From NCBI GenBank assembly GCA_963738405.1, contig CAVTWJ010000012.1:64001-128000 (forward strand): a DNA stretch of 64,000 nucleotides, written 5' to 3'. Shown in pieces: positions 12,938 to 45,136 of this stretch (its first letter is position 1; each line of letters starts with the position of its first letter). This DNA is from a candidate division FCPU426 bacterium (GTDB lineage Bacteria; Oederibacteriota; Muellerivitia; Muellerivitales; Muellerivitaceae). The position numbers and the translations under genes were made by a program. Under the pieces are notes generated by a model. The model saw only the letters and a list, made by a program, of their open reading frames with translations, searched no databases and was not told the origin of the DNA.

Positions 12938-13288
12938 TCATTTCTTTTCCCAATTTTGAATGATTTTCTCAAGCTTTTGAACAAATGGCGGCAGGTCCTC
13001 TGAGACGATCTCCCACAAAATATCAAGATCGACTTGGTCGTAGCCATGGATGAGGCGATTTCTCAACCCGATGATTTGAGCCCAAGGAAGATTGGCATAT
13101 TTTTCCCTTTCCTCATCCGAAACACGAGTGGCCGCTTCTCCAACAACTTCCAAAAGGCGTGTCAAAGCAAGATTCAAAACGCGGTCTTTTGCGATGTCTT
13201 CACGGGTTTTATGCTTGGTCAGGGATACCGCTTCTTGCGCGTAATCCCTCATTTGAAGAAAGGAAATCCTAGGATCGCGCTGTGTCAT
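12938..13288 (-). CDS. HEPN (DUF86/HepT-like) toxin
   Basis: RNRLIHGY (RxxxxH) motif. Confidence 0.9.
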   Translation of the reverse strand: MTQRDPRISFLQMRDYAQEAVSLTKHKTREDIAKDRVLNLALTRLLEVVGEAATRVSDEEREKYANLPWAQIIGLRNRLIHGYDQVDLDILWEIVSEDLPPFVQKLEKIIQNWEKK

Positions 13289-13574
13289 AAAGGGCTTCAG
13301 CCTCAGAAAGGACCTGTTCCCTAAAATAGGGGCTTAAGGATTGATAGGTGTTTAAATCAACCTTTCGGCTAAACAACTTTGAAAAATCATCTTGAAGGGA
13401 AAAAAAAGCCAGCCCCGGGGTATGGTCCGGGCTAAATTCAATCAATAGATCGAGATCACTTTCGGGCTGAAAATCAGCGCGAACAGCCGATCCAAAAAGC
13501 GAAAGCTTTTGAATGTGATGCCTGCGGCATAATTCAGCGATTTTTTCTTTGTCGATTTTAATGCCTGGTTTCAT
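13269..13574 (-). CDS. Minimal nucleotidyltransferase (MntA-like) antitoxin
   Basis: LFGS..R.DF..ESDLDLL. Confidence 0.9.
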   Translation of the reverse strand: MKPGIKIDKEKIAELCRRHHIQKLSLFGSAVRADFQPESDLDLLIEFSPDHTPGLAFFSLQDDFSKLFSRKVDLNTYQSLSPYFREQVLSEAEALYDTARS

Positions 13575-13627
13575 CCTACGGCCTCGTTCTCATTTCTCAA
13601 TGATTTAGTCTATTTTACCAGAAAACC

Positions 13628-13861
13628 TTATCGGGCATGGAGATTGTCCCGGTGGCCCAAGGCCTTTCCCACCCGGTAGGGTTTGTTCCGCAGGGTCTTC
13701 AGCAGCCGGTCTAAAGACGATTTTCTCAATGGGTCTTCATGCGCGATGGATACCAAATAATCGCGGACCATTTCGGTAAGGGTTTTATTTCTCTGGGCGG
13801 CCGCCAACCGGGCCTGATCCAAGGTGCTTTCCTCGATGGCTAAAGTCAGTTTCTTTTTCAT
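13628..13861 (-). CDS. DUF6364-like RHH antitoxin (orphan)
   Basis: KLTL.IEE..L..AR..A......LT.MVRDYL; paralogue at 19064; no PIN gene follows. Confidence 0.7.
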   Translation of the reverse strand: MKKKLTLAIEESTLDQARLAAAQRNKTLTEMVRDYLVSIAHEDPLRKSSLDRLLKTLRNKPYRVGKALGHRDNLHAR

Positions 13862-14081
13862 GAGTCCCTATTTACCTGATTAAGTGATTTACCTAAACCA
13901 TAGGCCGGGAAATCTTAAAAGTCAAAAGGGGCCCTAAACGAAAAACCGTCACACTTATGGCGCCTCCCTGAATCAGGGCCCAATAGCAGCGCAAACGCGC
14001 TACTGGACAGGATTCAGGGCACGGATAATTCCATCTCCGTCATTCGTTCACAAGACGAATGCCGCGGTTTGAGGATTCCCA

Positions 14082-16184
14082 TTACTGAACCAGTAATGGG
14101 AGCCTCGTCTTTTTCGGGTTGAAGACCAAGGTTCTGTTTCTTGGGCCCGACATTCCCTTCACCCATTCGCCCGGGTCCACCACAAACAGCGCGTGCGGGC
14201 CCGGCGACAGGTCTTGCAGACTCGAAAGCAATTCCTCGTTGCCCATGCGCATGCCGGGGTTCGAATCCACCGACCATATATGATCGCCCGGCACAAGACC
14301 CGCCTTCGCGATGGGGCTGTTATCCCATGTTCCCGTCACTTCGCCATCGCTGCCCATCAATAGGCCCTGGTATAGATAGGGCAAAGGGCCGATAGGGGCG
14401 TTCTTGCCCCCTTGGGCGTTTCGCACCCAAAATTCCGAACCCGAAACCAGGTGCGCCAAATCCTCAACGCTTTCGCACTGCACGGCGAAGGGCTTTTTTA
14501 AACCGGCAAACTGCATGGAGAATTGATAAAAGGTGCGGGGGTGGTCACCCAGTACCTCAACCTCGCAACAATGGATGGCCCGCACGTCTTCCCAATAAAA
14601 GGCCATTCCCTTCTTTGAGCTATCGCCCAAGACGGGGTTGATATCCCCAAACGAAAATCCGCCTTGGATTTCCAAGTTGAAACCGGAGCCATTCACCACC
14701 GCCGAGGTAATCTTTTTTTCATCGGGGCCCAACCAAAACGAATATTTTTCCGGGTCTTGGATATCCATGAAGCGGCGGCCCGCCATTTCAGCGCCCATAT
14801 TTGCGTCGGGTTCGATGGAAAAGTCCTTCACCCGGCAGGGCCGGGGCAGGGCTAATATTTCCGCTTCCAAAGAGGCCCGGTCTTCTTTGGGCATGGTCGC
14901 AACACCTTCCTGTTTCGGGGCGGAAAGTTTCTTTTGTGAATGAGGGCGCGCCTGTGCCGGTTCCATAGGGGAACCGGCTGCCTGGGCCGTTGTGGTTATG
15001 GGGCTTTGGATTTTGGCGTTATCCAAGGCTTGGTCGTTCTTGGTGTCTTGGAGACTTGGTGGTGAAAATGGGTTTATCTGAGTTGGTAGATGTTCCATTA
15101 TCCAACTCCTGAAAAACCATCCCGCCCCCAAAACCGCCGCGACGATGAGGGTGGCCATCAACCCGGTGCGGAATTCCTTGTGAATCCACCAAACCAAGGC
15201 GACGGCAAGGACAAGAACCACCCAGGGCTTGGCCAGCGCCTGGGCCAGAAGCCACAAAGGCAAGTGAAGGATGAAGTGGAAAAGGAACCGCCGAAGGCTG
15301 TCGATCCAGGGGCCCACCCCGGGGATAAAGTGCCCCGCAATGCTGATAACACTGCCATAGGTGAAAAGGATGATGAACCAGTAAAGCCCCCAATGGCCCA
15401 CGAAACTAAAGGGGTTGGGCAGGGACTGGCCCGAACCATGTCTTCGGCCTGAACGGGAGGAAGAATGGGAACGAAGGGGGATGAAATAGTTCGCCGTCGT
15501 CTTGGCGCCTTTTGTGATGTACTGGTGAATCAAACTGGCAAGGGTTTTTAGGGTGAAAAAGAAGCCCTTAGCTCCTGCTTTTTGAAGTGCCTTTAGGGTC
15601 TTTTTGGCCCCCTTCCTTTTAGACTTTTTCATTTTGGTTGGTTTCTGGATCACCTCTTCCTCGGAGTCCTCCTCTTCCAGGGATGGGTCTTCTTCGGGTT
15701 CTTGCTTCTTATACGGGACCTTTGTGTGGTCAAAATCGGAGGCGGGTTTGCCACTCACCATATGAACCACCAAAGCCTCAATTTTTCGCCTGGCTAGGTG
15801 GCGGGAAAGGATCACATCCAAGGCTTCATGGACGGCTTTAGGAAGGTCAGGAACCTTTCCGTCTAAGGCTGTCAGTGCCAATGCTTGCCTAAGGGATAGT
15901 TTAAAGGGCCCCTGTGCCGAGGCCCCAAGCCGAGGCACTTGATTTGGGTGTGCCGGTTCCGTAAGGGAACCGGCGGGGGGGCTAACTGCAGCTTTTCGAA
16001 CCTTTTCAACAGCCAATGGATCGAATATTCGTTGAAGGGACCTAAGGTTATGAAGGGTTCCAAGGCTGATATTTAAGGTTTTGACCTGATCTTCATATAG
16101 AGCCGAGGGGTTCTTTTGGTGTTCGAGGGCGTAGGCCGAAAGCTGGTCCAGCCAATCTTTCGTTTTCGGATTAAAACGTCCCAA
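14082..16184 (-). CDS. 700-aa membrane protein: ParB-HTH-like N-terminus, 3-4 TM segments, PDZ-like C-terminus
   Basis: AGGAGG plus TTG start; LSLRQALAL...ILSRHLARRKIEALV; hydrophobic aa about 260-360; SPIAKAGLVPGDHIWSVD. Confidence 0.65.
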   Translation of the reverse strand: MGRFNPKTKDWLDQLSAYALEHQKNPSALYEDQVKTLNISLGTLHNLRSLQRIFDPLAVEKVRKAAVSPPAGSLTEPAHPNQVPRLGASAQGPFKLSLRQALALTALDGKVPDLPKAVHEALDVILSRHLARRKIEALVVHMVSGKPASDFDHTKVPYKKQEPEEDPSLEEEDSEEEVIQKPTKMKKSKRKGAKKTLKALQKAGAKGFFFTLKTLASLIHQYITKGAKTTANYFIPLRSHSSSRSGRRHGSGQSLPNPFSFVGHWGLYWFIILFTYGSVISIAGHFIPGVGPWIDSLRRFLFHFILHLPLWLLAQALAKPWVVLVLAVALVWWIHKEFRTGLMATLIVAAVLGAGWFFRSWIMEHLPTQINPFSPPSLQDTKNDQALDNAKIQSPITTTAQAAGSPMEPAQARPHSQKKLSAPKQEGVATMPKEDRASLEAEILALPRPCRVKDFSIEPDANMGAEMAGRRFMDIQDPEKYSFWLGPDEKKITSAVVNGSGFNLEIQGGFSFGDINPVLGDSSKKGMAFYWEDVRAIHCCEVEVLGDHPRTFYQFSMQFAGLKKPFAVQCESVEDLAHLVSGSEFWVRNAQGGKNAPIGPLPYLYQGLLMGSDGEVTGTWDNSPIAKAGLVPGDHIWSVDSNPGMRMGNEELLSSLQDLSPGPHALFVVDPGEWVKGMSGPRNRTLVFNPKKTRLPLLVQ

Positions 16185-16257
16185 GTTATCCTCCTATGCC
16201 GAAGTAAAGGTGTTCTTGAAATTGAAATCAGGGTTAATTTAACGCCAAAAAGCCTTA

Positions 16258-16396
16258 TTTCAACGGAAATTTATCGGTTTTCAACGGAAATAGTGTGTAT
16301 TTTCAACGGAAATTTTATGCTTTTTCAACGGAAACTAAATTTTTTTCAACGGAAACTTTTTGATTTTCAACGGGAATTATATTTTTTCAACGGAAA
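16258..16396. repeat. Array of seven direct repeats TTTCAACGG(A/G)AA, period 20-22 bp
   Basis: CAACGG cores at 16261, 16282, 16304, 16326, 16347, 16368, 16388; AT-rich variable spacers. Confidence 0.95.
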
Positions 16397-16441
16397 TGGT
16401 TTTGGATGGTTATGGCCCACTTTTTAGGCGGGTTAGTCCCG

Positions 16442-16484
16442 AAAACAAAAACGCCCCTACCCCTTTTTAGGGGGGTAAAGGCGC
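16442..16484 (-). terminator. Probable intrinsic terminator
   Basis: GCGCCTTTACCCC / GGGGTAGGGGCGT stem followed by TTTTGTTTT on the minus strand. Confidence 0.65.
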
Positions 16485-16510
16485 CTTACAGGCCTATTGA
16501 TTTTGGGTGA

Positions 16511-16813
16511 TTAGCTTTGGGAAGCGGGGTTGCCGGTCGTAGAAGGCTGGGTGACGGCTTGTGGCTGTTCCACTTTAGGGGTCGTCTCAGTCTTTTTAGC
16601 AATGGGGGCCTTGGGGGCCGTTTTGGCGTGGTGTGACCTTTTGGGGCCACCGGTTACAACCGTCTTTTTCTTGCTGGTGGCGACAACTTTAGAGGTTGCC
16701 AAAAGCTCTTTAATCTTCGCGATCAGCTTTTCCCCTTCGGGGCCCTGCTTCCTGATCTTTTTCAGCAGTTTCTTGGCTGCTTTAAACAGCTTTTTTTCTT
16801 TCTTTTCGTTCAT
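16511..16813 (-). CDS. Small Lys-rich basic protein
   Basis: GGAGG RBS; 100 aa, very Lys-rich. Confidence 0.7.
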   Translation of the reverse strand: MNEKKEKKLFKAAKKLLKKIRKQGPEGEKLIAKIKELLATSKVVATSKKKTVVTGGPKRSHHAKTAPKAPIAKKTETTPKVEQPQAVTQPSTTGNPASQS

Positions 16814-17038
16814 CTAAACCTCCGTGTATTTAAAAACCATCGCGCCGGTAACTTGCAGGTATCGACACAATGTAAACAGATTATACACGGACGTAACATT
16901 GGATTGTTGAGTTTATTAGGTTTTTGACAAAATTTAACATTGGCGTCCATAGACGAAGGATAGGTTTCAATCCTGGATGGCCTGCCTGTACCACCTCGAC
17001 GAAGTGGTACAGAGCGAATACCCTCACCTTTAAAACCT

Positions 17039-17635
17039 TCAAACGATACGGCAGGCCTCCTCGAAGCTCAGACGCGGTCCCCGTGGGAACAGTTTGGTCT
17101 TGTCACCATGGCCCAAATTACAAATGAAGTTCGATTTCCAGGAAGTGCCCGAAAAGAACGCTTCATCCAGTTTCTTGTTATCAAAACCCGATAGGGGGCC
17201 GCAATCCAACCCCAGGGCCCTGGCGGCCAATATAAAATAGCCGCCCTGAAGCGAACTGTTTCTCATCGCGGTCTCATCGGCCAAAGGTTTGTTGCCCGCG
17301 AACATATCCCGGTAGCCCCCCGCGCCGGGAATGGGAAACAATCGCGTGATATAGTCGTAAAACTTCTCGTCAAACGCGATGATCGCCGTGACCGGAGCGG
17401 CCTTCACCTTTTCCACGTTCGTGGGCGACAAAGAGCCGATCAATTTTTCCTTTTCGGGGCCGTTTTTCACGAAGACAATCCGCGCGGGCGAGATGTTCGC
17501 GCTGGTGGGTCCCCACTTCATCAGGTCGTAAAGTTCATGAAGCGTTTGATCGCTCACCTCTTCGGGAAGCCAGTCCCGATGGGTCCTGGCTTCGGTAAAC
17601 AGTATTTTTAAATCGTCATGGGTAATGGCGCTCAT
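17039..17635 (-). CDS. RutE-like nitroreductase / malonic semialdehyde reductase
   Basis: LFTEART...WGPTSAN.SPARIVF...RNSSLQG.Y.I.AARALGLDCGP. Confidence 0.9.
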   Translation of the reverse strand: MSAITHDDLKILFTEARTHRDWLPEEVSDQTLHELYDLMKWGPTSANISPARIVFVKNGPEKEKLIGSLSPTNVEKVKAAPVTAIIAFDEKFYDYITRLFPIPGAGGYRDMFAGNKPLADETAMRNSSLQGGYFILAARALGLDCGPLSGFDNKKLDEAFFSGTSWKSNFICNLGHGDKTKLFPRGPRLSFEEACRIV

Positions 17636-17647
17636 GGCTTCCCCCTT

Positions 17648-18055
17648 TCAATGAATTTTATAAGCCGGCAAAGCCTTGACCGTAAAAAGGGCCTTAAAGT
17701 AACCGCGGTAAGCCCAGATCATAAAAATTTCGAGCAAGGAAAACACCAAGCCCGGCTGGATGCCTTCTCCGCCCATGATCAAAAGGTGGTAAGCCAAAAT
17801 ATTGACGAGAACCGGCCCCAGAAGCACCAGGCCTATGGGCGCGGTACCGCCGATAAGCACCAGGATCCCGCCCGCCAATTGGACAGCCCCGATGAACGCC
17901 ATCCAATGTGTCGGAAACATGACCCCCATGAATTGGGCGGCCAAGGAACCCGCCGGCGGCGCGGGCATGGGCAGAAAGGGGTGAAGGATATTGGAACCAA
18001 AAACAATAAAACCGATGCCCAGCAGTGTCCGGCTAACCACAATCGCGATTTTCAT
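17648..18055 (-). CDS. DoxX-like membrane protein
   Basis: R.LLG..F.VFG.N...PVLVNIL.YH, four TM segments. Confidence 0.75.
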   Translation of the reverse strand: MKIAIVVSRTLLGIGFIVFGSNILHPFLPMPAPPAGSLAAQFMGVMFPTHWMAFIGAVQLAGGILVLIGGTAPIGLVLLGPVLVNILAYHLLIMGGEGIQPGLVFSLLEIFMIWAYRGYFKALFTVKALPAYKIH

Positions 18056-31912: not shown

Positions 31913-34900
31913 TTAACGGCTCAGCCACATCCGCATCAAGGACAGGAGCTGTTCGGAGTCCACCGGTTTGGTGATGTAATCCGAAGCGCCCGACTCGATG
32001 CATTTTTCACGGTCGCCTTTCATCGCCTTGGCGGTCAGGGCCACGATGGGCAGGGATTTAAAGGCTTCTCTTTTGCGAATAGCCTGCATCGTGTCATAAC
32101 CGTCCATTTCGGGCATCATGATGTCCATCAACACAATATCCACGTCCGGGGTCTTATCCAAAACCTCGATGGCTTCTCGCCCGCTTTCGGCGGAGACCAC
32201 TTTCATTTCCTGGTGGTCCAAAAGACTGGTCATGGCGAAAATATTCCGGTAGTCGTCGTCCACCACCATCACCTTGCGGCCTTTCAAGGCGGTGTTGCTT
32301 TGGTGCAGCTGCTCGATTTCTCTGCGTTTGGCCTCCGGCAGCTTGGCGGTCGGCAGATGAAGGAAAAGAGCCGCCTCGTCCACCACGCGTTCGGCGGATT
32401 TGACTTCCTTGAGGACGCACACCTTCGCGGCGCGCCTCAAGAGGGCCTCCTCCTCTTTGGCCAATTCGCCGGTGATATGGACGATGGCCGGCAGGTTGGA
32501 AAAATCCGGATTTGAATGAATTTCTTTTAGCGTGCGGAATCCGTCCGGGTCCGGGAGTTCCAGAACCAGGCAATCCAATTTTCCCTTCTTCAACAGGGGT
32601 AGGGCTTCCTTCGAATCGGCGAGGAACCCCACCTTGACCTCCTCGGATTCCAGTGTTTCCTTGAGTTTGTTGCGCTTGGCCTTTTGGGCGCAGGCGATCA
32701 AAACCTGCCGGAGCCGGGGTTTCAGGTACCTTTCCATATCATCGAACGCCTTCTTGAGGCCCTCTTTGTTAACGGGTTTGGCGAGAAACCCGACCGCTCC
32801 TTGTTTTAAGCCGCGGGTCCAATCCTCATCCGCCGATATGATTTCCACGGGAATATGGCGCGCGCACAGGTCGTTTTTGAAACGGGATAAAATTTTCCAG
32901 CCGTCGATGTCCGGAAGCTGGATATCCAACGTTACCGCGCTGGGCCGAAACTCGTCCGCCAGGCGAAGCGCCGTGTCGCCCCGCAGGGCCACCAGGCTCT
33001 TGTAGCCGTTCTCGCGGGCCAGATCCACCAGGATGCGTGCGAAGTTCGCGTCGTTCTCCACAATCAATAGCACCCGGTCCCCGGGTTTGATGTTCTTGCG
33101 GTCGTCGGCCACCTTGCTGGCGGCGATGATGACCTCCTCGCTTTCCTTCTTGGAGGTTTCCCGGAAAGTTTTGGGCATCATGAGCGCCGCGTTGTCGGTG
33201 GGGCTGGGGATCAGGGCCGGTTTGACCTGGATGTAATTCTTGGGCATATAAAGAACAAAGGTGCTCCCGCTTCCAGGACGGCTCTTGGATAAGGTCAATT
33301 GCCCGCCGAGAAGCTTGGCCAGCTCGCGGCTGATCGACAGGCCCAATCCCGTTCCCCCGTATTTCCGGCTGGTGCCGCTTTCGGCTTGTTGGAACGCCTC
33401 GAAAATGATCTTTTGTTTGTCCTCGGGAATACCAATGCCCGTGTCGGTAACGGAAAAGGCCACCACCTCGTCCGTCTTGCTGAGGATGGGATGGTCCGCG
33501 CTCCAGCCGCTTTTGGCGGGGGAAATTTTGAGGAAAACCTGCCCCTTTTCCGTGAACTTGAAGGCGTTGGAAAGCAGGTTCCTCAAGACCTGTTCCAGGC
33601 GCTTGGAATCGGTATGGATCTCCTCGCCCAGTTTGGAATCGACCTCGACGTTGAAGCCCAAGTTTTTCCCCTCGGCCACGTGGCGGAACAACCGCTCCAT
33701 GTGCTCGCGCATTTCGCTGAAGGGCACATTGTCCACATCCAGAGTCATGGTGCCCGATTCCACCTTGGCCAGGTCGAGGATGTCGTTGATCAAGAGCAGA
33801 AGATCCCCGCCGGAGGCGTGGATAGTCCTCGCGTATTCCACTTGTTTGGGCGTGAGGCTCTTGGAATCCTCGGCCAGCTGCTGAGAGAGGATCAGCATGC
33901 TGTTCAAGGGAGTGCGCAGCTCGTGGGACATGTTGGAGAGGAATTCGGATTTGTACTTGGAGGTCAGGGCGAGCTGGTCGGCCTTTTCCTCCAATTCCTG
34001 GTTGGTTTTCTGCAATTCTTCCTGCTGGCTTTGCAGGTGTTTTAAAAGGGTTTCGGTGCGCAGGGTCGCCTCAAGGGTATTGATGACGATCCCGATGCTT
34101 TCCATCAATTGCTCCAGAAAGGCCAAATGGGTGGCGTTGAAGGTTTCGAAGGAAGCCAGTTCCAGCACGCCCTTGATTTGACCCTCGAAGAGGACCGGAA
34201 GGACGACGATGTTGAGCGGGGAAGCCTCGCCCACCGCCGAGCCGATGCGGATGTAGTTCCCCGGCACCTTGTTCAGGAGGAGGCGTGATTTTTCCTGGGC
34301 GCATTCCCCTACCAGGCCTTCCCCGAGCGCGAATTCCTTGGGATGGTCCGGCTGGGACCGATAGGCGAACCCCGAAAGGAGTTTGAGGCGGGTTTCACCC
34401 GGTTCCTTGGAATCGGCGATATAAAAGGCGCTGTGTTGGGCCGAGACGACGTGGTTGAGCTCCGACAAAATCGCCTTGGCCACCGTCGTCAGTTCCCTTT
34501 GGCCCTGAAGCATGCGGGTAAACCGGGCTAGGTTGGTCTTGAGCCAGTCCTGCTCGGCGTTCTTTTGGGTCGTGCCGCGCAGGTTGGCGATCATCTGGTT
34601 GATGGTGTCCTTCAAGGTTTCCACTTCCCCGCTGGCGTCCACCCGGATGGAACGGGTGAGGTCCCCCTTGGTCACGGCGGTGGCCACCTCGGCGATGGCG
34701 CGCACCTGGGTGGTTAAATTGGCGGCCAGCTGATTGACGTTGTCGGTCAAGTCTTTCCAGGTTCCCGCGGCGCCCGGCACATTGGCCTGGCCTCCCAGCC
34801 GCCCTTCCACCCCGACTTCCCGGGCCACGCTGGTTACCTGGGCCGCGAAGGTGGCCAGGGTATCGATCATGCTGTTGATGGTATCGGCCAAAGTGGCGAT

Positions 34901-37900
34901 TTCGCCTTTGGCGACGACGGTGAGTTTTTGTTTCAATTCGCCCCGGGCGACCGAACTGACGACCTTGGCGATATTGCGCACCTGGTCCGTCAGGTTGGCC
35001 GCCATCAAGTTGACGTTGTCGGTCAAGTCTTTCCAAACCCCCGAGACGCCCTTGACTTGGGCCTGGCCGCCGAGCTTTCCTTCCGTGCCCACTTCGCGCG
35101 CCACGCGGGTAACTTCCCCGCCGAAGGCGTTCAACTGGTCCACCATGGTGTTGATGGTGTCTTTTAGCTCCAGGATCTCGCCCTTGACGTCCACCGTGAT
35201 TTTCTTCGATAGGTCGCCCTTCGCCACCGCGGTGGTGACATCGGCGATGTTACGCACCTGGCCGGTGAGGTTGCTGGCCATCAAGTTGACGTTTTCCGTC
35301 AGTTCCTTCCAGGTACCGCCCACGCCGTGGACATAGGCCTGGCCGCCCAGTTTTCCTTCCGTACCCACCTCGCGCGCCACGCGGGTGACTTCGGAGGCGA
35401 AGGACCGAAGCTGGTCCACCATGGTGTTGATGGTTTCCTTGAGCCTGAGAATTTCACCCCGCACGTCGACGGTGATTTTTTTCGACAAGTCGCCGTTGGC
35501 GACCGCGGTGGTGACATCCGCGATATTGCGCACCTGGTCGGTCAGGTTGCTGGCCATGGAATTGACGTTGTCGGTCAAGGCCTTCCAAGTACCGGCCGCG
35601 CCGGGCACATGGGCCTGGCCTCCCAGTTTGCCGTCCGTACCCACTTCACGAGCCACGCGGGTGACTTCGGAAGCGAAGGAGCTTAATTGGTCCACCATGG
35701 TGTTGATGGTTTCTTTGAGTTGAAGAATTTCACCCCTCACATCGGCGGTGATTTTTTTGGATAGGTCGCCGTTGGCCACCGCGATGGTGACTTCCGCGAT
35801 ATTACGCACCTGGCCGGTCAAATTACTGGCCATCAAATTGACGTTTTCCGTCAGGTCTTTCCAGGTTCCCGCGACGCCCGGCACCTGGGCCTGGCCGCCC
35901 AGTTTCCCTTCCGTACCCACTTCGCGCGCCACGCGGGTGACTTCCCCCGCGAAGGCGTTGAGCTGGTCCACCATGGTGTTGATGGTGTTTTTCAACTCGA
36001 GGATTTCACCCTTCACATCGACCGTGATTTTTTTAGAGAGGTCGCCGCTGGCCACGGCCGTAGTGACATCCGCGATATTGCGCACCTGGTCGGTCAGGTT
36101 GCTGGCCATGGAATTGACGTTGTCGGTCAAGGCCTTCCAGGTACCGGCAGCGCCGGGCACATGGGCCTGGCCGCCTAATTTTCCATCGGTTCCTACTTCA
36201 CGAGCCACGCGGGTGACTTCGGAAGCGAAGGAGCTTAATTGGTCCACCATGGTGTTGATGGTTTCTTTGAGTTGGAGGATTTCACCGCGCACGTCGGCCG
36301 TGATTTTCTTGGATAGGTCACCGTTGGCCACCGCGATGGTGACTTCCGCGATATTACGCACCTGGCCTGTCAAGTTGCTGGCCATCAAGTTGACGTTTTC
36401 AGTTAAATCTTTCCAGGTTCCGGCCACTCCCGGCACCTGGGCCTGGCCGCCCAAATTACCTTCCGTACCCACTTCGCGCGCCACGCGGGTGACTTCCCCC
36501 GCGAAGGCGTTGAGCTGATCCACCATGATATTAATGGTGTTTTTCAAGGCCAAGATTTCGCCCTTCACGTCGACCGTGATTTTTTTCGAGAGGTCGCCGT
36601 TGGCCACCGCGATGGTGACTTCCGCGATGTTACGAACCTGGCCAGTGAGGTTGCTGGCCATGAGATTGACGTTGTCGGTCAAGTCTTTCCAGGTTCCAGC
36701 CACCCCGGGCACGAGGGCCTGGCCGCCCAGTTTTCCTTCAGTACCTACCTCGCGTGCCACGCGGGTGACTTCGGAGGCGAAGGATCTGAGCTGATCCACC
36801 ATGGTGTTGATGGTTTCTTTAAGTTGAAGGATTTCACCGCGCACATCGGCGGTAATTTTCTTAGACAGGTCGCCGTTGGCCACCGCGATGGTGACTTCCG
36901 CGATGTTACGAACCTGGCCGGTCAAATTACTGGCCATCAAATTGACGTTTTCCGTCAGGTCTTTCCAGGTTCCCGCGACGCCCGGCACCTGGGCCTGGCC
37001 TCCCAATTTCCCTTCCGTACCCACCTCGCGCGCCACGCGGGTGACTTCGGAGGCGAAGGACCTGAGCTGATCCACCATGGTGTTGATGGTTTCTTTGAGT
37101 TGGAGGATTTCACCGCGCACGTCGGCGGTGATTTTTTTCGACAAGTCCCCGCTGGCCACCGCGATGGTGACTTCCGCGATATTACGCACTTGGCCGGTCA
37201 GGTTGCTTGCCATGGAATTCACGTTATCCGTCAAGTCTTTCCAGGTTCCGGCGACTCCCGGCACGATGGCCTGGCCGCCCAATTTTCCTTCCGTACCCAC
37301 TTCGCGCGCCACGCGGGTAACTTCTGAGGCGAAGGACCTGAGCTGGTCCACCATGGTGTTGATGGTTTCTTTGAGTTGGAGGATTTCACCGCGCACATCG
37401 GCGGTGATTTTTTTCGAAAGGTCGCCGCTGGCCACCGCGATGGTGACTTCCGCGATGTTACGCACCTGTCCGGTGAGGTTGCTGGCCATGAGGTTGACGT
37501 TGTCGGTCAAGTCTTTCCAGGTGCCAGCAACTCCCGGCACAATCGCCTGGCCGCCCAAGTTTCCTTCGGTACCCACTTCGCGCGCCACCCGGGTGACTTC
37601 GGATGCGAAGGACCTGAGCTGGTCCACCATGGTGTTAATGATTTTCGCGGTCTTGAGAAATTCGCCCTCGAGGGGCCGACCGCTCACTTCCAGCTCCGCC
37701 GCCTGGGAAAGATCTCCCTTGGCGACGGCGCCGATCACGCGGGACATTTCGCTTGTGGGGCGAACCAGTTCGTCGATGAGGGTATTCACCGATTCGATCA
37801 TCCGAAGCCAGGAACCGCCAAACTCGCCGGGCAGGGCCCGCTGGTTGATCTTCCCCTCTTTTGCGACCGCTTGGCGAAGGCGTTCCAATTCCCCCGCCAT

Positions 37901-38086
37901 GCGCTCGTTCATTTCCACCACATTGTTGAAAGTGTCGGCGATCTTCCCGGCGGTTCCGGTCCATTCAATCGGGAGGCGGACGGAAAAATCCCCCCGCTTC
38001 AAGGCCATCATGGTTTTTAATATTTGGTTCGCGTCGAGGGAATCGGGTTCAAAGGTTTGGTGTTCAGGGTGGAGTTGCGTCGCCAT
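31913..38086 (-). CDS. Poly-HAMP - GAF - hybrid histidine kinase with three receivers
   Basis: Eleven near-identical 92-aa HAMP repeats plus a divergent one; [18 protein letters not shown] x3 (middle one degenerate). Confidence 0.95.
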
Positions 38087-44677: not shown

Positions 44678-45136
44678 TCAGGGCGATTCCAACCGGCTGG
44701 GCAAAACCGCCCGTTTGAACCAAAAGTCCACCAAACACCGGGTGGTTTCCTGGAAGCCCCTGAAATCCATGGGTTTCATCAAGTACCCATTAGCGTTCAT
44801 CTCATAGGCTTCGCGCACATCCGATTCCAACCGGGAACTGGTCAAAATGATCACCGGGATAATCTTAAACGCCGGATCGCTTTTGATCATTCGCAGCGCC
44901 ATCCGGCCGTCAATGCGGGGGGTATTCAAATCCAACAAGACCATATCGGGCGCGGGAGATTCTTTATACTTCCCTTCCCGTTTCAGGAAGTTGATGGCTT
45001 CCTCCCCGTTCGTCACGAAATTCAAATGGACCGCCGTCATGGTTTCGTGAAAGGCCTGCTGCATCAAAAGAACGTCCCCGGCGTTGTCTTCCACGATCAA
45101 AATCTCAAAGGGCCTATAGACCAACCGTCCGTTCAT
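44678..45136 (-). CDS. Single-domain response regulator (Rcp-like), coupled to the MASE1 kinase
   Basis: ATGA overlap with kinase stop; C-terminal DFWF. Confidence 0.9.

What the first reader, a model, noticed from the sequence alone, without database searches (positions are those of the whole stretch)
14082..16396. Candidate membrane-anchored ParB/Noc-like DNA-tether system: parS-like array plus HTH-TM-PDZ protein
Seen: seven quasi-palindromic TTTC-AACG-GAAA sites start about 74 bp upstream of a 700-aa gene. Its N-terminus (LNISLGTLHNLRSL...LSLRQALALTAL...VILSRHLARRKIEALV) is followed by a charged linker, 3-4 TM segments, a possibly PH-like domain and a PDZ-like end. Known: parS (TGTTTC-ACGT-GAAACA) and the Noc site (ATTTC-CCGG-GAAAT) share the TTTC-N4-GAAA frame and are read by ParB-family HTH domains; Noc links DNA to the membrane. 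Inference: the N-terminus resembles the ParB central HTH domain but lacks the CTP-binding GxRR box, so this may be an integral-membrane ParB-type protein binding its own site array, acting as a DNA-membrane tether or one-component transmembrane regulator. I know no described system with this architecture.
Basis: partly seen in the sequence, partly recalled or inferred. Interest (0 to 1): 0.85.

Follow-up and report, generated by a model that had tools for sequence, protein, structure and literature searches.

The report
Membrane-anchored ParB-like protein with site array
A 700-residue membrane protein has a DNA-binding head of the type used by chromosome-partition (ParB) and nucleoid-occlusion (Noc) proteins, and seven evenly spaced copies of a ParB-style site lie just upstream of its gene, so it probably holds this DNA at the cell membrane, an arrangement my searches did not find described.

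Summary
Seven same-strand TTTCAACGGAAA sites (16258-16396) have a period of about 21 bp, against 1.1 expected by chance. They lie 73 nt upstream of a 700-aa gene (14082-16184, minus strand).

- Residues 1-150 are a ParB/Noc-type DNA-binding domain. The AlphaFold model matches Noc-NBS and ParB structures. About half of the full-length relatives carry a ParB_N CTPase domain directly in front of this region. A family profile hits Noc at E 9e-29 across both domains.
- This protein lacks ParB_N.
- After the DNA-binding domain come a basic linker, 3-4 hydrophobic helices, a disordered linker, a PH-like domain and a PDZ domain resembling those of periplasmic proteases.

The family has 229 representative clusters in metagenome-derived proteins. 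No Pfam or NCBIfam model matches this protein. I found no member in GTDB species genomes, plasmids or phages, and no paper describing it.

Relatives swap or lose the outer domain but keep the DNA-binding domain and the membrane anchor.

Best reading: a site-specific DNA-membrane tether that assembles on its own phased array and represses its own promoter, with the outer module as anchor or sensor. Binding to the array is inferred, not shown. Upstream DNA of homologues could not be fetched.

The parts
16258..16396 (+). Array of seven direct-repeat sites with core TTTCAACGGAAA. Starts are 16258, 16279, 16301, 16323, 16344, 16365 (one mismatch) and 16385. The period is about 21 bp, with A+T-rich spacers.
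   Evidence: 7 matches against 1.11 expected, 0 of 100 shuffles reached 7. TRF period 21 or 43; core identity 97.6% against spacer identity 51.6%.
16236..16263 (-). Promoter-like match TTGAAA-16 nt-TAAATT. Its -35 hexamer is the gene-proximal half of site 1.
   Evidence: consensus scan, 9 of 12 positions. This is weak evidence, because every repeat contains TTGAAA by construction.
16190..16195 (-). Shine-Dalgarno AGGAGG, 5 nt before the TTG start codon (16184-16182).
   Evidence: Read directly from the sequence.
14082..16184 (-). Gene for the 700-aa protein P0001 (stop codon at 14082-14084).
   Evidence: Homologues.
15735..16184 (-). aa 1-150: ParB/Noc-type helix-turn-helix DNA-binding domain. 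It is all-helical, with pLDDT about 95 apart from a P0001-specific insertion at aa 69-95.
   Evidence: fold. (homology chain through relatives that carry ParB_N). (the insertion is absent from the 26 relatives aligned).
15414..15734 (-). aa 151-257: acidic then strongly basic linker (19 K/R and 0 D/E in aa 180-262), with a long helix at aa 193-234.
15090..15413 (-). aa 258-365: membrane region with four predicted helices (258-284, 291-318, 320-338, 342-365). The last helix is the one shared with single-pass relatives.
14880..15089 (-). aa 366-435: disordered Pro/Gln/Ser-rich linker (pLDDT below 50).
   Evidence: Variable.
14409..14879 (-). aa 436-592: PH-like beta-sandwich closed by a long C-terminal helix (573-590).
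   Evidence: pLDDT 90-98. PfAPH PH domain prob 1.00, TM to target 0.60; also SIN1 PH, FAK FERM and NF1 Sec-PH.
14085..14408 (-). aa 593-700: PDZ domain with the motif SPIAKAGLVPGDHIWSV.
   Evidence: CtpA 8sxh_B, 8sxg_A and 8sxe_B at prob 1.00, rmsd 4.3-4.6 over 96-98 columns, 24-27% identity; also DegS, DegP/Q and RseP PDZ domains; nearest Atlas clusters are PDZ, score 0.91. PDZ_2 in relative P0008 is below cut-off (E 0.0061).
16448..16487 (-). Terminator-like hairpin plus T-run after the upstream gene. It separates the array from upstream transcription.
   Evidence: 16 pairs, 8 of them G-C.

Best explanation
P0001 is a short-form member of an undescribed family of membrane-integral ParB/Noc-type DNA-binding proteins.

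Shown:
- Its N-terminal 150 residues are a ParB/Noc DNA-binding domain without the CTPase (ParB_N) domain.
- This domain is followed by hydrophobic helices and then by a PH-like plus PDZ module of the kind found in periplasmic proteases.

Inferred:
- The cytoplasmic DNA-binding domain recognises the seven TTTC-AACG-GAAA sites upstream of its own gene.
- The sites recur every two helical turns, so they face one side of the DNA. Several membrane-embedded copies can then dock side by side and pin this locus to the inner membrane.
- The tandem array supplies the multivalency that canonical ParB obtains by CTP-driven spreading from a single site.
- The gene-proximal site overlaps the -35-like hexamer, so occupancy should repress the protein's own promoter.
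- The PH-PDZ module lies outside the cytoplasmic membrane. It either anchors the complex to an envelope component or tunes assembly in response to a peptide ligand.
For: Domain identity:
- Relative P0115 matches Spo0J at E 6.9e-13 and Noc at 4.8e-9 over aa 5-233. It matches NCBIfam nucleoid_noc over aa 6-227, below the cut-off.
- P0068 matches 9 plasmid ParB genes over aa 6-221.

Family architecture:
- Of 53 representatives with both end domains aligned, 28 have an N-terminal extension of 97 aa or more and 25 start like P0001.
- Of 41 proteins I chose for a Pfam scan, 18 hit ParB_N at E<=0.01, and 8 of those are above the gathering score.

Site logic:
- The core sits in the same TTTC-N4-GAAA frame as parS (TGTTTCAC-GTGAAACA) and NBS (TATTTCCC-GGGAAATA) (PMC7383237 passages).
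- The frame is close to, but not the same as, the VirB site ATTTCAGtATGAAAT, which has a 5-nt centre (PMC6410309 passages).
- The array lies next to the only ParB-type gene in the window and nowhere else in the window.
- The core is conserved while the spacers diverge.

Anchor as the conserved core (my hydropathy scan):
- 26 of 64 members have a single hydrophobic segment.
- 12 of 47 relatives lacking PH-PDZ end within 35 residues of their last hydrophobic segment (tail-anchored).
- 14 others carry a different domain of about 190 aa instead.

The window encodes TonB, ExbB/D, OmpA and an outer-membrane beta-barrel protein, so the host has a periplasm.
Against: - No binding data exist, and no comparative data either. 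Two scans of GTDB species genomes found no relative, so whether homologues carry arrays is unknown.
- The short-form N-domain alone is not recognised by sequence. Pfam and NCBIfam give nothing. Its 27-sequence profile finds no PDB relative. hhalign against one plasmid ParB gives 2.4% probability, although it aligns the HTH region.
- The second, better model's top-50 Foldseek rows list only PDZ and PH hits, with no ParB.
- ParB and Noc sites are palindromes. These sites have an asymmetric centre and a single orientation.
- No dimerisation element was identified.
- Four helices in P0001 would put the PH-PDZ module in the cytoplasm, whereas single-pass relatives put it outside. The topology is unresolved.
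- The promoter match is only a consensus hit.
- Several relatives seem to share contigs (identical longest-contig lengths of 842592 and 730015). Such paralogy is more typical of regulators than of structural tethers.
Confidence: 0.5

Rival explanations
1. It is a ToxR/CadC-like one-component transmembrane transcription regulator built on a ParB-type DNA-binding domain. The outer PH-PDZ module senses an envelope signal, such as exposed protein C-termini. The array is simply a strong auto-operator. Other targets lie elsewhere in the genome, and membrane tethering of DNA is incidental.
For: - A constant DNA-binding domain is combined with interchangeable outer domains: PH-PDZ, a second domain of about 190 aa in 14 representatives, or none. 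This is the usual pattern of sensor families.
- Several family members seem to share contigs.
- The PDZ domain resembles those of the envelope-stress proteases DegS and RseP.
- The proximal site overlaps the -35-like hexamer.
- ParB-family transcription regulators exist: VirB (PMC6410309, PMC10245682 listing) and KorB (PDB 8qa8, 'Transcriptional repressor protein KorB', hit).
- ToxR-family receptors are a known membrane-integrated class (PMC6320335 and PMC7888679, abstracts in the listing).
Against: - Seven phased sites are more than autoregulation needs.
- The 12 tail-anchored relatives have no sensing domain yet keep the DNA-binding domain plus anchor.
- No other site occurs in 64 kb.
- About half of the full-length relatives retain a CTPase domain, which is typical of clamp-forming ParB proteins.
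Confidence: 0.3
2. The array and the gene are a centromere-like maintenance module of an integrated or formerly mobile element. The protein partitions or retains that element by membrane attachment, much as plasmid ParB proteins act on tandem-repeat centromeres.
For: - The first 22 kb of the window are rich in toxin-antitoxin and defence genes: BrnT/BrnA, ParE, HepT/MNT, PIN and two Schlafen-type helicases with an HNH nuclease. Such regions are often mobile.
- Tandem direct repeats that each hold a ParB-type site recall the plasmid F centromere sopC, bound by SopB (recalled, not checked in a call).
Against: - No ParA-type ATPase, Rep protein, integrase or tRNA gene turned up in the window.
- tblastn of P0001 against 72,556 plasmids and 50,697 phage records found nothing.
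- The array has no blastn match in plasmids.
- Relatives sit on contigs of 158-842 kb, and the window carries housekeeping genes (ribosomal protein S1, DAHP synthase).
Confidence: 0.1
3. The array belongs to something else, and its position next to the gene is coincidence. It could be iterons of a replication origin, operators for another regulator, or a neutral minisatellite.
For: - Direct repeats with 21-22-bp phasing are also the hallmark of plasmid iterons (general knowledge).
- No experiment links protein and DNA.
- Several neighbouring ORFs have no family assignment.
Against: - A repeated 12-mer falling by chance into the TTTC-N4-GAAA frame fixes 8 positions, about 1.5e-5 for one frame (my estimate). 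Here it lies beside the window's only ParB-type DNA-binding domain.
- The core is conserved at 97.6% against 51.6% for the spacers, which argues against a neutral minisatellite.
- No Rep-like gene was detected.
Confidence: 0.1

Closest known systems
Noc (nucleoid occlusion protein) with NBS sites
   Same: - Best structural and sequence relative of the DNA-binding domain.
- Its 16-bp site has TTTC/GAAA arms. The right half-site here reads (T/A)ATTTCCG against TATTTCCC for NBS.
- It joins specific DNA to the membrane (PMC8429893, abstract in the listing).
   Different: - Noc is peripheral. Its membrane binding is switched by CTP (PMC8429893, abstract in the listing), through an N-terminal amphipathic helix (recalled). 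It spreads from scattered single sites.
- P0001 has integral hydrophobic helices, no ParB_N domain, an outer PH-PDZ module and a tandem array next to its own gene.
ParB/Spo0J with parS (ParABS partition)
   Same: - Homologous DNA-binding domain. Long-form relatives also share ParB_N, with the G-x-x-R motif nearly invariant in the alignment.
- The left half-site TTTCAA resembles the parS half TTTCAC.
   Different: - No ParA partner in the window.
- No ParB C-terminal dimerisation domain.
- The sites are asymmetric and tandem.
- The protein is membrane-integral.
ParB-family transcription regulators VirB and KorB
   Same: - ParB-superfamily proteins that act at promoters.
- The VirB site ATTTCAGtATGAAAT shares the ATTTCA half-site (PMC6410309 passages).
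- KorB matched the family profile's ParB_N part (8qa8, E 2.1e-5).
   Different: Both are soluble and CTP-dependent. Neither has a membrane or extracytoplasmic part.
ToxR/CadC family of membrane-integrated one-component regulators
   Same: Overall layout: a cytoplasmic N-terminal DNA-binding domain, a membrane span and an outer domain. 26 of 64 family members look single-pass. DNA binding by such receptors brings the target locus to the membrane (PMC6320335 abstract, listing).
   Different: ToxR-type proteins use an OmpR-like winged helix (recalled). Here the domain is ParB-type, the outer module is PH-PDZ, and P0001 has 3-4 hydrophobic helices.
Periplasmic PDZ proteases (DegS, DegP/Q, CtpA, RseP)
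   Same: The PDZ fold of aa 593-700.
   Different: No protease domain is present. The PDZ follows a PH-like domain.
Iteron arrays of plasmid origins, and the sopC centromere of plasmid F
   Same: Tandem direct repeats phased at about two helical turns. The 43-bp alternative period recalls sopC (recalled, not checked).
   Different: No Rep or ParA/SopA gene nearby. The context looks chromosomal.

Membership tests
ParB/Noc superfamily | ParB-type helix-turn-helix DNA-binding domain | tested here: met
   - Fold: Foldseek hits to the Noc DNA-binding domain with NBS, and to ParB and Spo0J, at prob 1.00.
- Homology chain: P0001 aligns with long-form relatives over their full length. The profile of P0001 plus 14 long forms hits Noc at E 8.9e-29 and the isolated Noc DNA-binding domain at 3.5e-4, over the columns aligned to P0001 aa 9-139.
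- Direct sequence tests of the short-form domain alone were negative.
ParB/Noc superfamily | ParB_N (PF02195) CTP-binding domain with the GxxR/GERR box | tested here: not met
   - P0001 begins 10 residues before the DNA-binding domain and has no ParB_N hit.
- Upstream DNA holds the array and a terminator, not coding sequence.
- The domain is present in relatives: 18 of 41 scanned and 28 of 53 by N-extension.
ParB/Noc superfamily | Cognate 14-16-bp site with inverted TTTC/GAAA arms | tested here: inconclusive
   The frame matches. The centre is asymmetric and no binding was measured.
ParABS partition system | Adjacent ParA-type Walker ATPase | tested here: not met
   No ParA, CbiA or AAA_31-type hit among the 69 ORFs of the window scanned with Pfam.
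Noc | Score above the NCBIfam nucleoid_noc cut-off; peripheral amphipathic membrane helix with a CTP switch | tested here: not met
   - P0001 has no NCBIfam hit.
- The relatives score 59 (P0115) and 34.6 (P0068) bits against a cut-off of 315.
- Integral helices are present instead of a peripheral helix.
ToxR-like transmembrane regulators | Layout: N-terminal cytoplasmic DNA-binding domain, one span, periplasmic domain | tested here: inconclusive
   My hydropathy scan gives 1 segment in 26 of 64 members, 2 in 16, 3 in 11 and 4 in 11. P0001 has 3-4. No topology predictor or experiment was available.
ToxR-like transmembrane regulators | OmpR-type winged-helix DNA-binding domain | tested here: not met
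   The fold and the homology are ParB/Noc-type. There is no Trans_reg_C hit.
PDZ domain | PDZ fold | tested here: met
   - Foldseek: CtpA PDZ at prob 1.00, 24-27% identity over 96-98 columns, plus DegS and RseP, on a model with pLDDT 93-98 in this region.
- Pfam PDZ models do not reach their cut-off.
Iteron-regulated replicon | Rep initiator gene next to the repeats | tested here: not met
   No Rep family was found in the neighbours by Pfam, PHROGs or NCBIfam. The adjacent gene is ParB-type.

The most novel reading that the evidence does not exclude
A trans-envelope DNA tether. A ParB-type head clamps a phased tandem array on the chromosome, and integral helices hold it in the inner membrane. 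A periplasmic PH-PDZ module grips an envelope component, so that one chromosomal locus is physically coupled to the cell envelope.

In this reading the family has replaced CTP-driven spreading with site multiplicity. Short forms would have arrays. Long forms, which keep the CTPase, would have single sites.

Such a device could position or retain a genomic region. It could also couple local transcription to membrane insertion.
Probability: 0.2. Interest if true: 0.9.

Novelty: new variant of a known kind. Interest (0 to 1): 0.72.

Why it matters
ParB-family proteins are the main model for how bacteria mark, move and organise specific DNA. Noc is the only well-studied case that joins DNA to the membrane, and it does so peripherally and under CTP control.

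This family hard-wires a ParB/Noc DNA-binding domain into the membrane. It combines that domain with exchangeable outer domains and exists with and without the CTPase domain. That gives a natural series for three questions:
- What does the CTP switch add?
- Can tandem sites replace spreading?
- Can envelope state be transmitted directly to a chromosomal locus?

The family also defines at least three unnamed domain families: the short-form DNA-binding domain, the PH-PDZ module and a second outer domain. It appears so far only in uncultivated bacteria.

Tried and rejected
Family scans of P0001
- Pfam, NCBIfam, PADLOC and PHROGs gave nothing meaningful.

Direct sequence tests of the short-form N-domain
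- The 27-sequence N-domain profile against PDB sequences gave only a low-complexity hit to a channel protein, E 0.37.
- hhalign of that profile against one plasmid ParB gave 2.4% probability.
- Atlas look-alikes of aa 1-160 all scored below 0.9. A 'ParB HTH' cluster appeared at rank 22, score 0.85, which is a lead only.

Search for homologous loci
- The close 5-sequence alignment found 45 pattern matches in GTDB species genomes, none confirmed.
- A 24-sequence subgroup alignment found 63 pattern matches, none confirmed.

Plasmids and phages
- tblastn of P0001 against plasmids and phages found no match.
- blastn of the array against plasmids found no match.

Other checks
- Complex prediction for a homodimer of the outer domain was not available. 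No dimer test was made.
- Rfam on 13000-18000 gave only a sub-threshold suhB match inside the gene (25.3 bits against 41), taken as chance.
- A second family member in the window: none.
- Iteron/Rep and plasmid-partition readings were considered and ranked low, for lack of Rep, ParA, integrase or plasmid relatives.

Literature
- Searches for a described membrane-integral ParB-type protein returned nothing relevant.
- In 10.1101/2024.03.22.586370 the terms co-occur but concern unrelated proteins (passages read).
Full report
**The observation**

The window carries a 2103-nt ORF on the minus strand (14082..16184) that encodes 700 aa. It has a TTG start, with AGGAGG 5 nt upstream.

Upstream lie seven copies of TTTCAACGGAAA. 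Six are exact and one has a single mismatch. All are on the + strand, at 16258, 16279, 16301, 16323, 16344, 16365 and 16385. The chance expectation is 1.11, and 0 of 100 shuffles reached 7.
- The spacing is 21, 22, 22, 21, 21, 20 nt, or two helical turns. TRF reports periods of 21 and 43.
- The 12-nt cores are 97.6% identical pairwise. The 8-10-nt spacers are 51.6% identical and 80% A+T. Selection therefore acts on the core.
- Only the TTTC/GAAA arms are palindromic. The centre AACG is not, so the sites are direct repeats with one polarity.
- Elsewhere in the window the looser frame TTTC-N4-GAAA occurs at chance level: 5 further sites against 4.3 expected.
- A strong terminator-like hairpin of the upstream gene (16487-16448, minus strand) and a promoter-like match bracket the array. 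The promoter-like match has its -35 hexamer, TTGAAA, in the gene-proximal half of site 1.

**What the protein is**

Pfam and NCBIfam give no meaningful hit. A word-indexed search found only four relatives at 38-64% identity. A profile of these five sequences, searched against 1.84 billion cluster representatives, found 229 proteins at E<=1e-3 and 120 at E<=1e-30.

Many full-length relatives are 100-140 residues longer at the N-terminus. For example, P0011 aligns to profile positions 8-700 over its aa 140-935, and P0068 aligns to positions 9-699 over its aa 100-845. I picked 41 relatives for a Pfam scan, choosing the long ones and those with extra sequence. Of these, 18 hit ParB_N (PF02195) at E<=0.01 in that extension, and 8 exceed the gathering score.

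I built a 149-row alignment from P0001, 3 relatives and 145 of the 149 other representatives listed. Four representatives that match only the linker/membrane part were dropped to fit the size limit. In that alignment 53 rows have both end domains:
- 28 carry at least 97 residues before the conserved Trp11 column. Two of these, P0115 and P0148, in fact have a different C-terminal domain.
- 25 start 2-28 residues before that column, like P0001.

So there are long forms and short forms, and P0001 is a genuine short form.

**The N-terminal domain**

Relative P0115 matches T. thermophilus Spo0J at E 6.9e-13 and Noc 7ng0 at E 4.8e-9 over its aa 5-233. That stretch covers ParB_N plus the whole DNA-binding domain.

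A profile of P0001 plus 14 long forms (alignment) finds 13 PDB sequences at E<=1e-3:
- four Noc entries (best 8.9e-29, profile positions 6-214);
- seven ParB/Spo0J entries;
- one sulfiredoxin;
- KorB.

The isolated Noc DNA-binding domain (6y93) matches profile positions 109-217. These are the columns aligned to P0001 aa 9-139.

Independently, Foldseek of the first AlphaFold model (N-domain pLDDT about 85) returned 6y93_B at prob 1.00, TM to target 0.62 and rmsd 3.6 over 136 columns. It also returned Noc 7ng0, 7nfu and 7ol9, and ParB 6sdk, 1vz0, 7bnr, 7bnk and 7o0n.

Reading together by eye, P0001 'NISLGTLHNLRSLQR' lines up with the Noc recognition helix 'GKGQSTIANKLRLLK'. Asn46 falls on the Asn conserved between ParB and Noc (N178 in Caulobacter numbering; PMC7383237 passages). 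The specificity positions differ. This residue-level reading is inference.

Tests against this assignment:
- The short-form domain alone is not detected by Pfam or by a PDB profile.
- hhalign to one plasmid ParB gives only 2.4% probability.
- The second model's 50 listed Foldseek rows are all PDZ or PH hits.

**The rest of the protein**

With the 149-row alignment, the model reaches a mean pLDDT of 80, and 95 or more in both end domains. Its parts are:
- an acidic then very basic linker (19 K/R and 0 D/E in aa 180-262), with a long helix at 193-234;
- four hydrophobic helices (258-284, 291-318, 320-338, 342-365);
- a disordered linker (366-427);
- a beta-sandwich closed by a long helix (436-590);
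- a final alpha/beta domain.

Foldseek assigns the beta-sandwich to PH-like folds: the PfAPH PH domain at prob 1.00 and TM to target 0.60, plus SIN1 PH, the FAK FERM lobe and NF1 Sec-PH. It assigns the final domain to PDZ domains of periplasmic proteases: CtpA at prob 1.00 with 24-27% identity over 96-98 columns, plus DegS, DegP/Q and RseP. The protein Atlas also places aa 430-700 nearest to PDZ clusters, at score 0.91, which is a lead only.

The window encodes TonB, ExbB/ExbD, OmpA and an outer-membrane beta-barrel protein. The host therefore has a periplasm.

**Topology**

My simple hydropathy scan of 64 members with the PH-PDZ domain gives one hydrophobic segment in 26, two in 16, three in 11 and four in 11. 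The single segment of P0006 aligns with the last helix of P0001.

Single-pass members must place the PH-PDZ module on the side opposite the DNA-binding domain, that is, outside. Four true spans in P0001 would place it inside. This conflict is unresolved and needs an experiment.

**Variation in the family**

47 rows have the N-domain but not PH-PDZ.
- 12 end within 35 residues of their last hydrophobic segment and look tail-anchored, at 195-328 aa.
- 14 representatives share another, unnamed C-terminal domain of about 190 aa (mutual BLAST hits, in which I gave 20 sequences). P0013 among them is otherwise very close to P0001 (E 3e-131 over profile positions 1-399). Pfam finds nothing in the 11 of these 14 that I scanned other than ParB_N in three long forms and one stray sub-threshold hit (Mfa1 in P0114).

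The invariant part of the family is thus a ParB-type DNA-binding domain plus a membrane anchor. The CTPase domain and the outer domain are both optional.

A second word-indexed search from P0068 listed 68 proteins. The only names their sources give are automatic ones: 'ParB/RepB/Spo0J family partition protein', 'ParB-like chromosome segregation protein Spo0J' and 'hypothetical protein'. Groups of three proteins share the same longest-contig length (842592 and 730015), which suggests several paralogues per genome. That is inferred from the lengths only.

**Where the family is found**

No relative was found in 185,579 GTDB species genomes by two pattern scans, in 72,556 plasmids or in 50,697 phage records. 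P0068 hits plasmid ParB genes only over its aa 6-221, in 9 records at 25-32% identity. The window holds no second member.

**Link between protein and array**

The sites fall in the frame used by ParB-family domains. The consensus parS is TGTTTCAC-GTGAAACA and the consensus NBS is TATTTCCC-GGGAAATA (PMC7383237 passages). VirB binds ATTTCAGtATGAAAT, related to P1 ParB Box A (PMC6410309 passages).

In the 16-bp frame the sites here read (A/T)(A/T)TTTCAA | CGGAAA(T/C)N. The left half has the A of parS at the variable position 6. The right half (rc (T/A)ATTTCCG) has the C of NBS.

For a repeated 12-mer to fall into this frame by chance, 8 bases must be fixed, about 1.5e-5 for one frame (my estimate). 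Here it lies beside the only ParB-type gene in 64 kb. I take cognate binding as likely, about 0.7, but it is not shown.

**Mechanism proposed**

Shown:
- the domain identities;
- the array statistics;
- the variation in family architecture.

Inferred:
- The cytoplasmic head binds each site.
- Two-turn phasing puts all sites on one face of the DNA, which suits proteins that approach from a plane, the membrane.
- Several copies assemble and hold the locus at the membrane.
- Without ParB_N there can be no CTP-dependent clamp or spreading, so the array supplies the multivalency.
- Site 1 overlaps the -35-like hexamer, so the complex should repress its own promoter.
- The PH-PDZ module anchors or modulates the complex.

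I give this tether-plus-autoregulation reading 0.5. A ToxR-like sensor-regulator reading gets 0.3. It is favoured by the exchangeable outer domains and the apparent paralogy, and disfavoured by the sensor-less tail-anchored forms and by seven phased sites. A centromere of a mobile element gets 0.1 and an unrelated array gets 0.1.

**Comparison and novelty**

The protein works most like Noc, in joining site-specific DNA to the membrane, and like ToxR/CadC in its layout. It is a member of the ParB/Noc superfamily by its DNA-binding domain. It is not a ParB, Noc, KorB or VirB orthologue:
- ParB_N is absent from P0001.
- The relatives score 59 and 34.6 bits against the NCBIfam nucleoid_noc cut-off of 315.
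- There is no ParA.
- There is no ParB C-terminal domain.

Six literature searches found no description of a membrane-integral ParB-type protein. The held library lacks most subscription journals, so this is not proof of absence. I rate it a new variant of a known kind.

**What stayed unchecked**
- Upstream DNA of homologues.
- Organism names and accession numbers of relatives.
- Any dimer prediction.
- Real topology.
- Any binding.

Noticed in passing
window 14953-14978 and 15949-15974: Two copies of a 26-nt palindromic element (TGTGCCGGTTCC-N4-GGGAACCGGC, 92% identical) lie inside the gene, in frame, both in variable linkers. One encodes part of the aa 69-95 insertion that none of 26 aligned relatives has. 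The other encodes 'AGSPMEPAQ', which is also present in P0004. The pattern gives 2 sites in the gene plus one weaker site at 44821, against 0.03 expected. It looks like a small REP/MITE-like palindrome that has inserted into coding DNA.
   Followed up: partly
window 16511-16813 (-): The gene just upstream of the array encodes a 100-aa, very lysine-rich protein (P0155). It has no Pfam, NCBIfam, PADLOC or PHROGs match and is followed by a strong terminator. It may be a small nucleic-acid-binding protein. Whether it belongs with the ParB-like gene is unknown.
   Followed up: partly
window 1-22300: A dense run of toxin-antitoxin and defence genes:
- two Schlafen-group-3 helicase-like proteins flanking an HNH nuclease (PADLOC candidate system PDC-S41, E 1.7e-289);
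- BrnT with a CopG-type antitoxin;
- ParE;
- HepT with its nucleotidyltransferase (PDC-S09);
- PIN with DUF6364 (twice);
- DUF433 with DUF5615.
G+C drops to 39-46% in the first 8 kb.
   Followed up: partly
window 22399-49411: A signalling cluster:
- a 2057-aa hybrid histidine kinase with 11-12 tandem HAMP domains, GAF and three receiver domains (31913-38086);
- about ten single-domain response regulators;
- a MASE1-PAS kinase;
- a receiver-PAS-GGDEF protein;
- a sigma-54 activator.
   Followed up: no
relatives P0013, P0074, P0094, P0111, P0114, P0115, P0116, P0123, P0125, P0136, P0141, P0144, P0148, P0149: A second, unnamed C-terminal domain of about 190 aa replaces PH-PDZ behind the same DNA-binding domain and membrane anchor. 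The 14 copies hit each other by BLAST. Pfam found nothing in this domain in the 11 I scanned (P0094, P0111, P0114, P0115, P0116, P0123, P0125, P0136, P0141, P0144, P0148 and P0149 among them); the other hits in those proteins are ParB_N in three long forms and a stray sub-threshold Mfa1 match at aa 210-238 of P0114, near its membrane segment.
   Followed up: partly
relatives listed: Three family members share a longest-contig length of 842592 (P0160, P0033, P0084) and three share 730015 (P0194, P0026, P0204). Forms with and without ParB_N are mixed. This suggests several paralogues per genome.
   Followed up: no
window 14399-14507 (+): A sub-threshold Rfam match to suhB/mmgR (25.3 bits against a gathering score of 41, E 0.041), antisense inside the gene. 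Probably chance.
   Followed up: no
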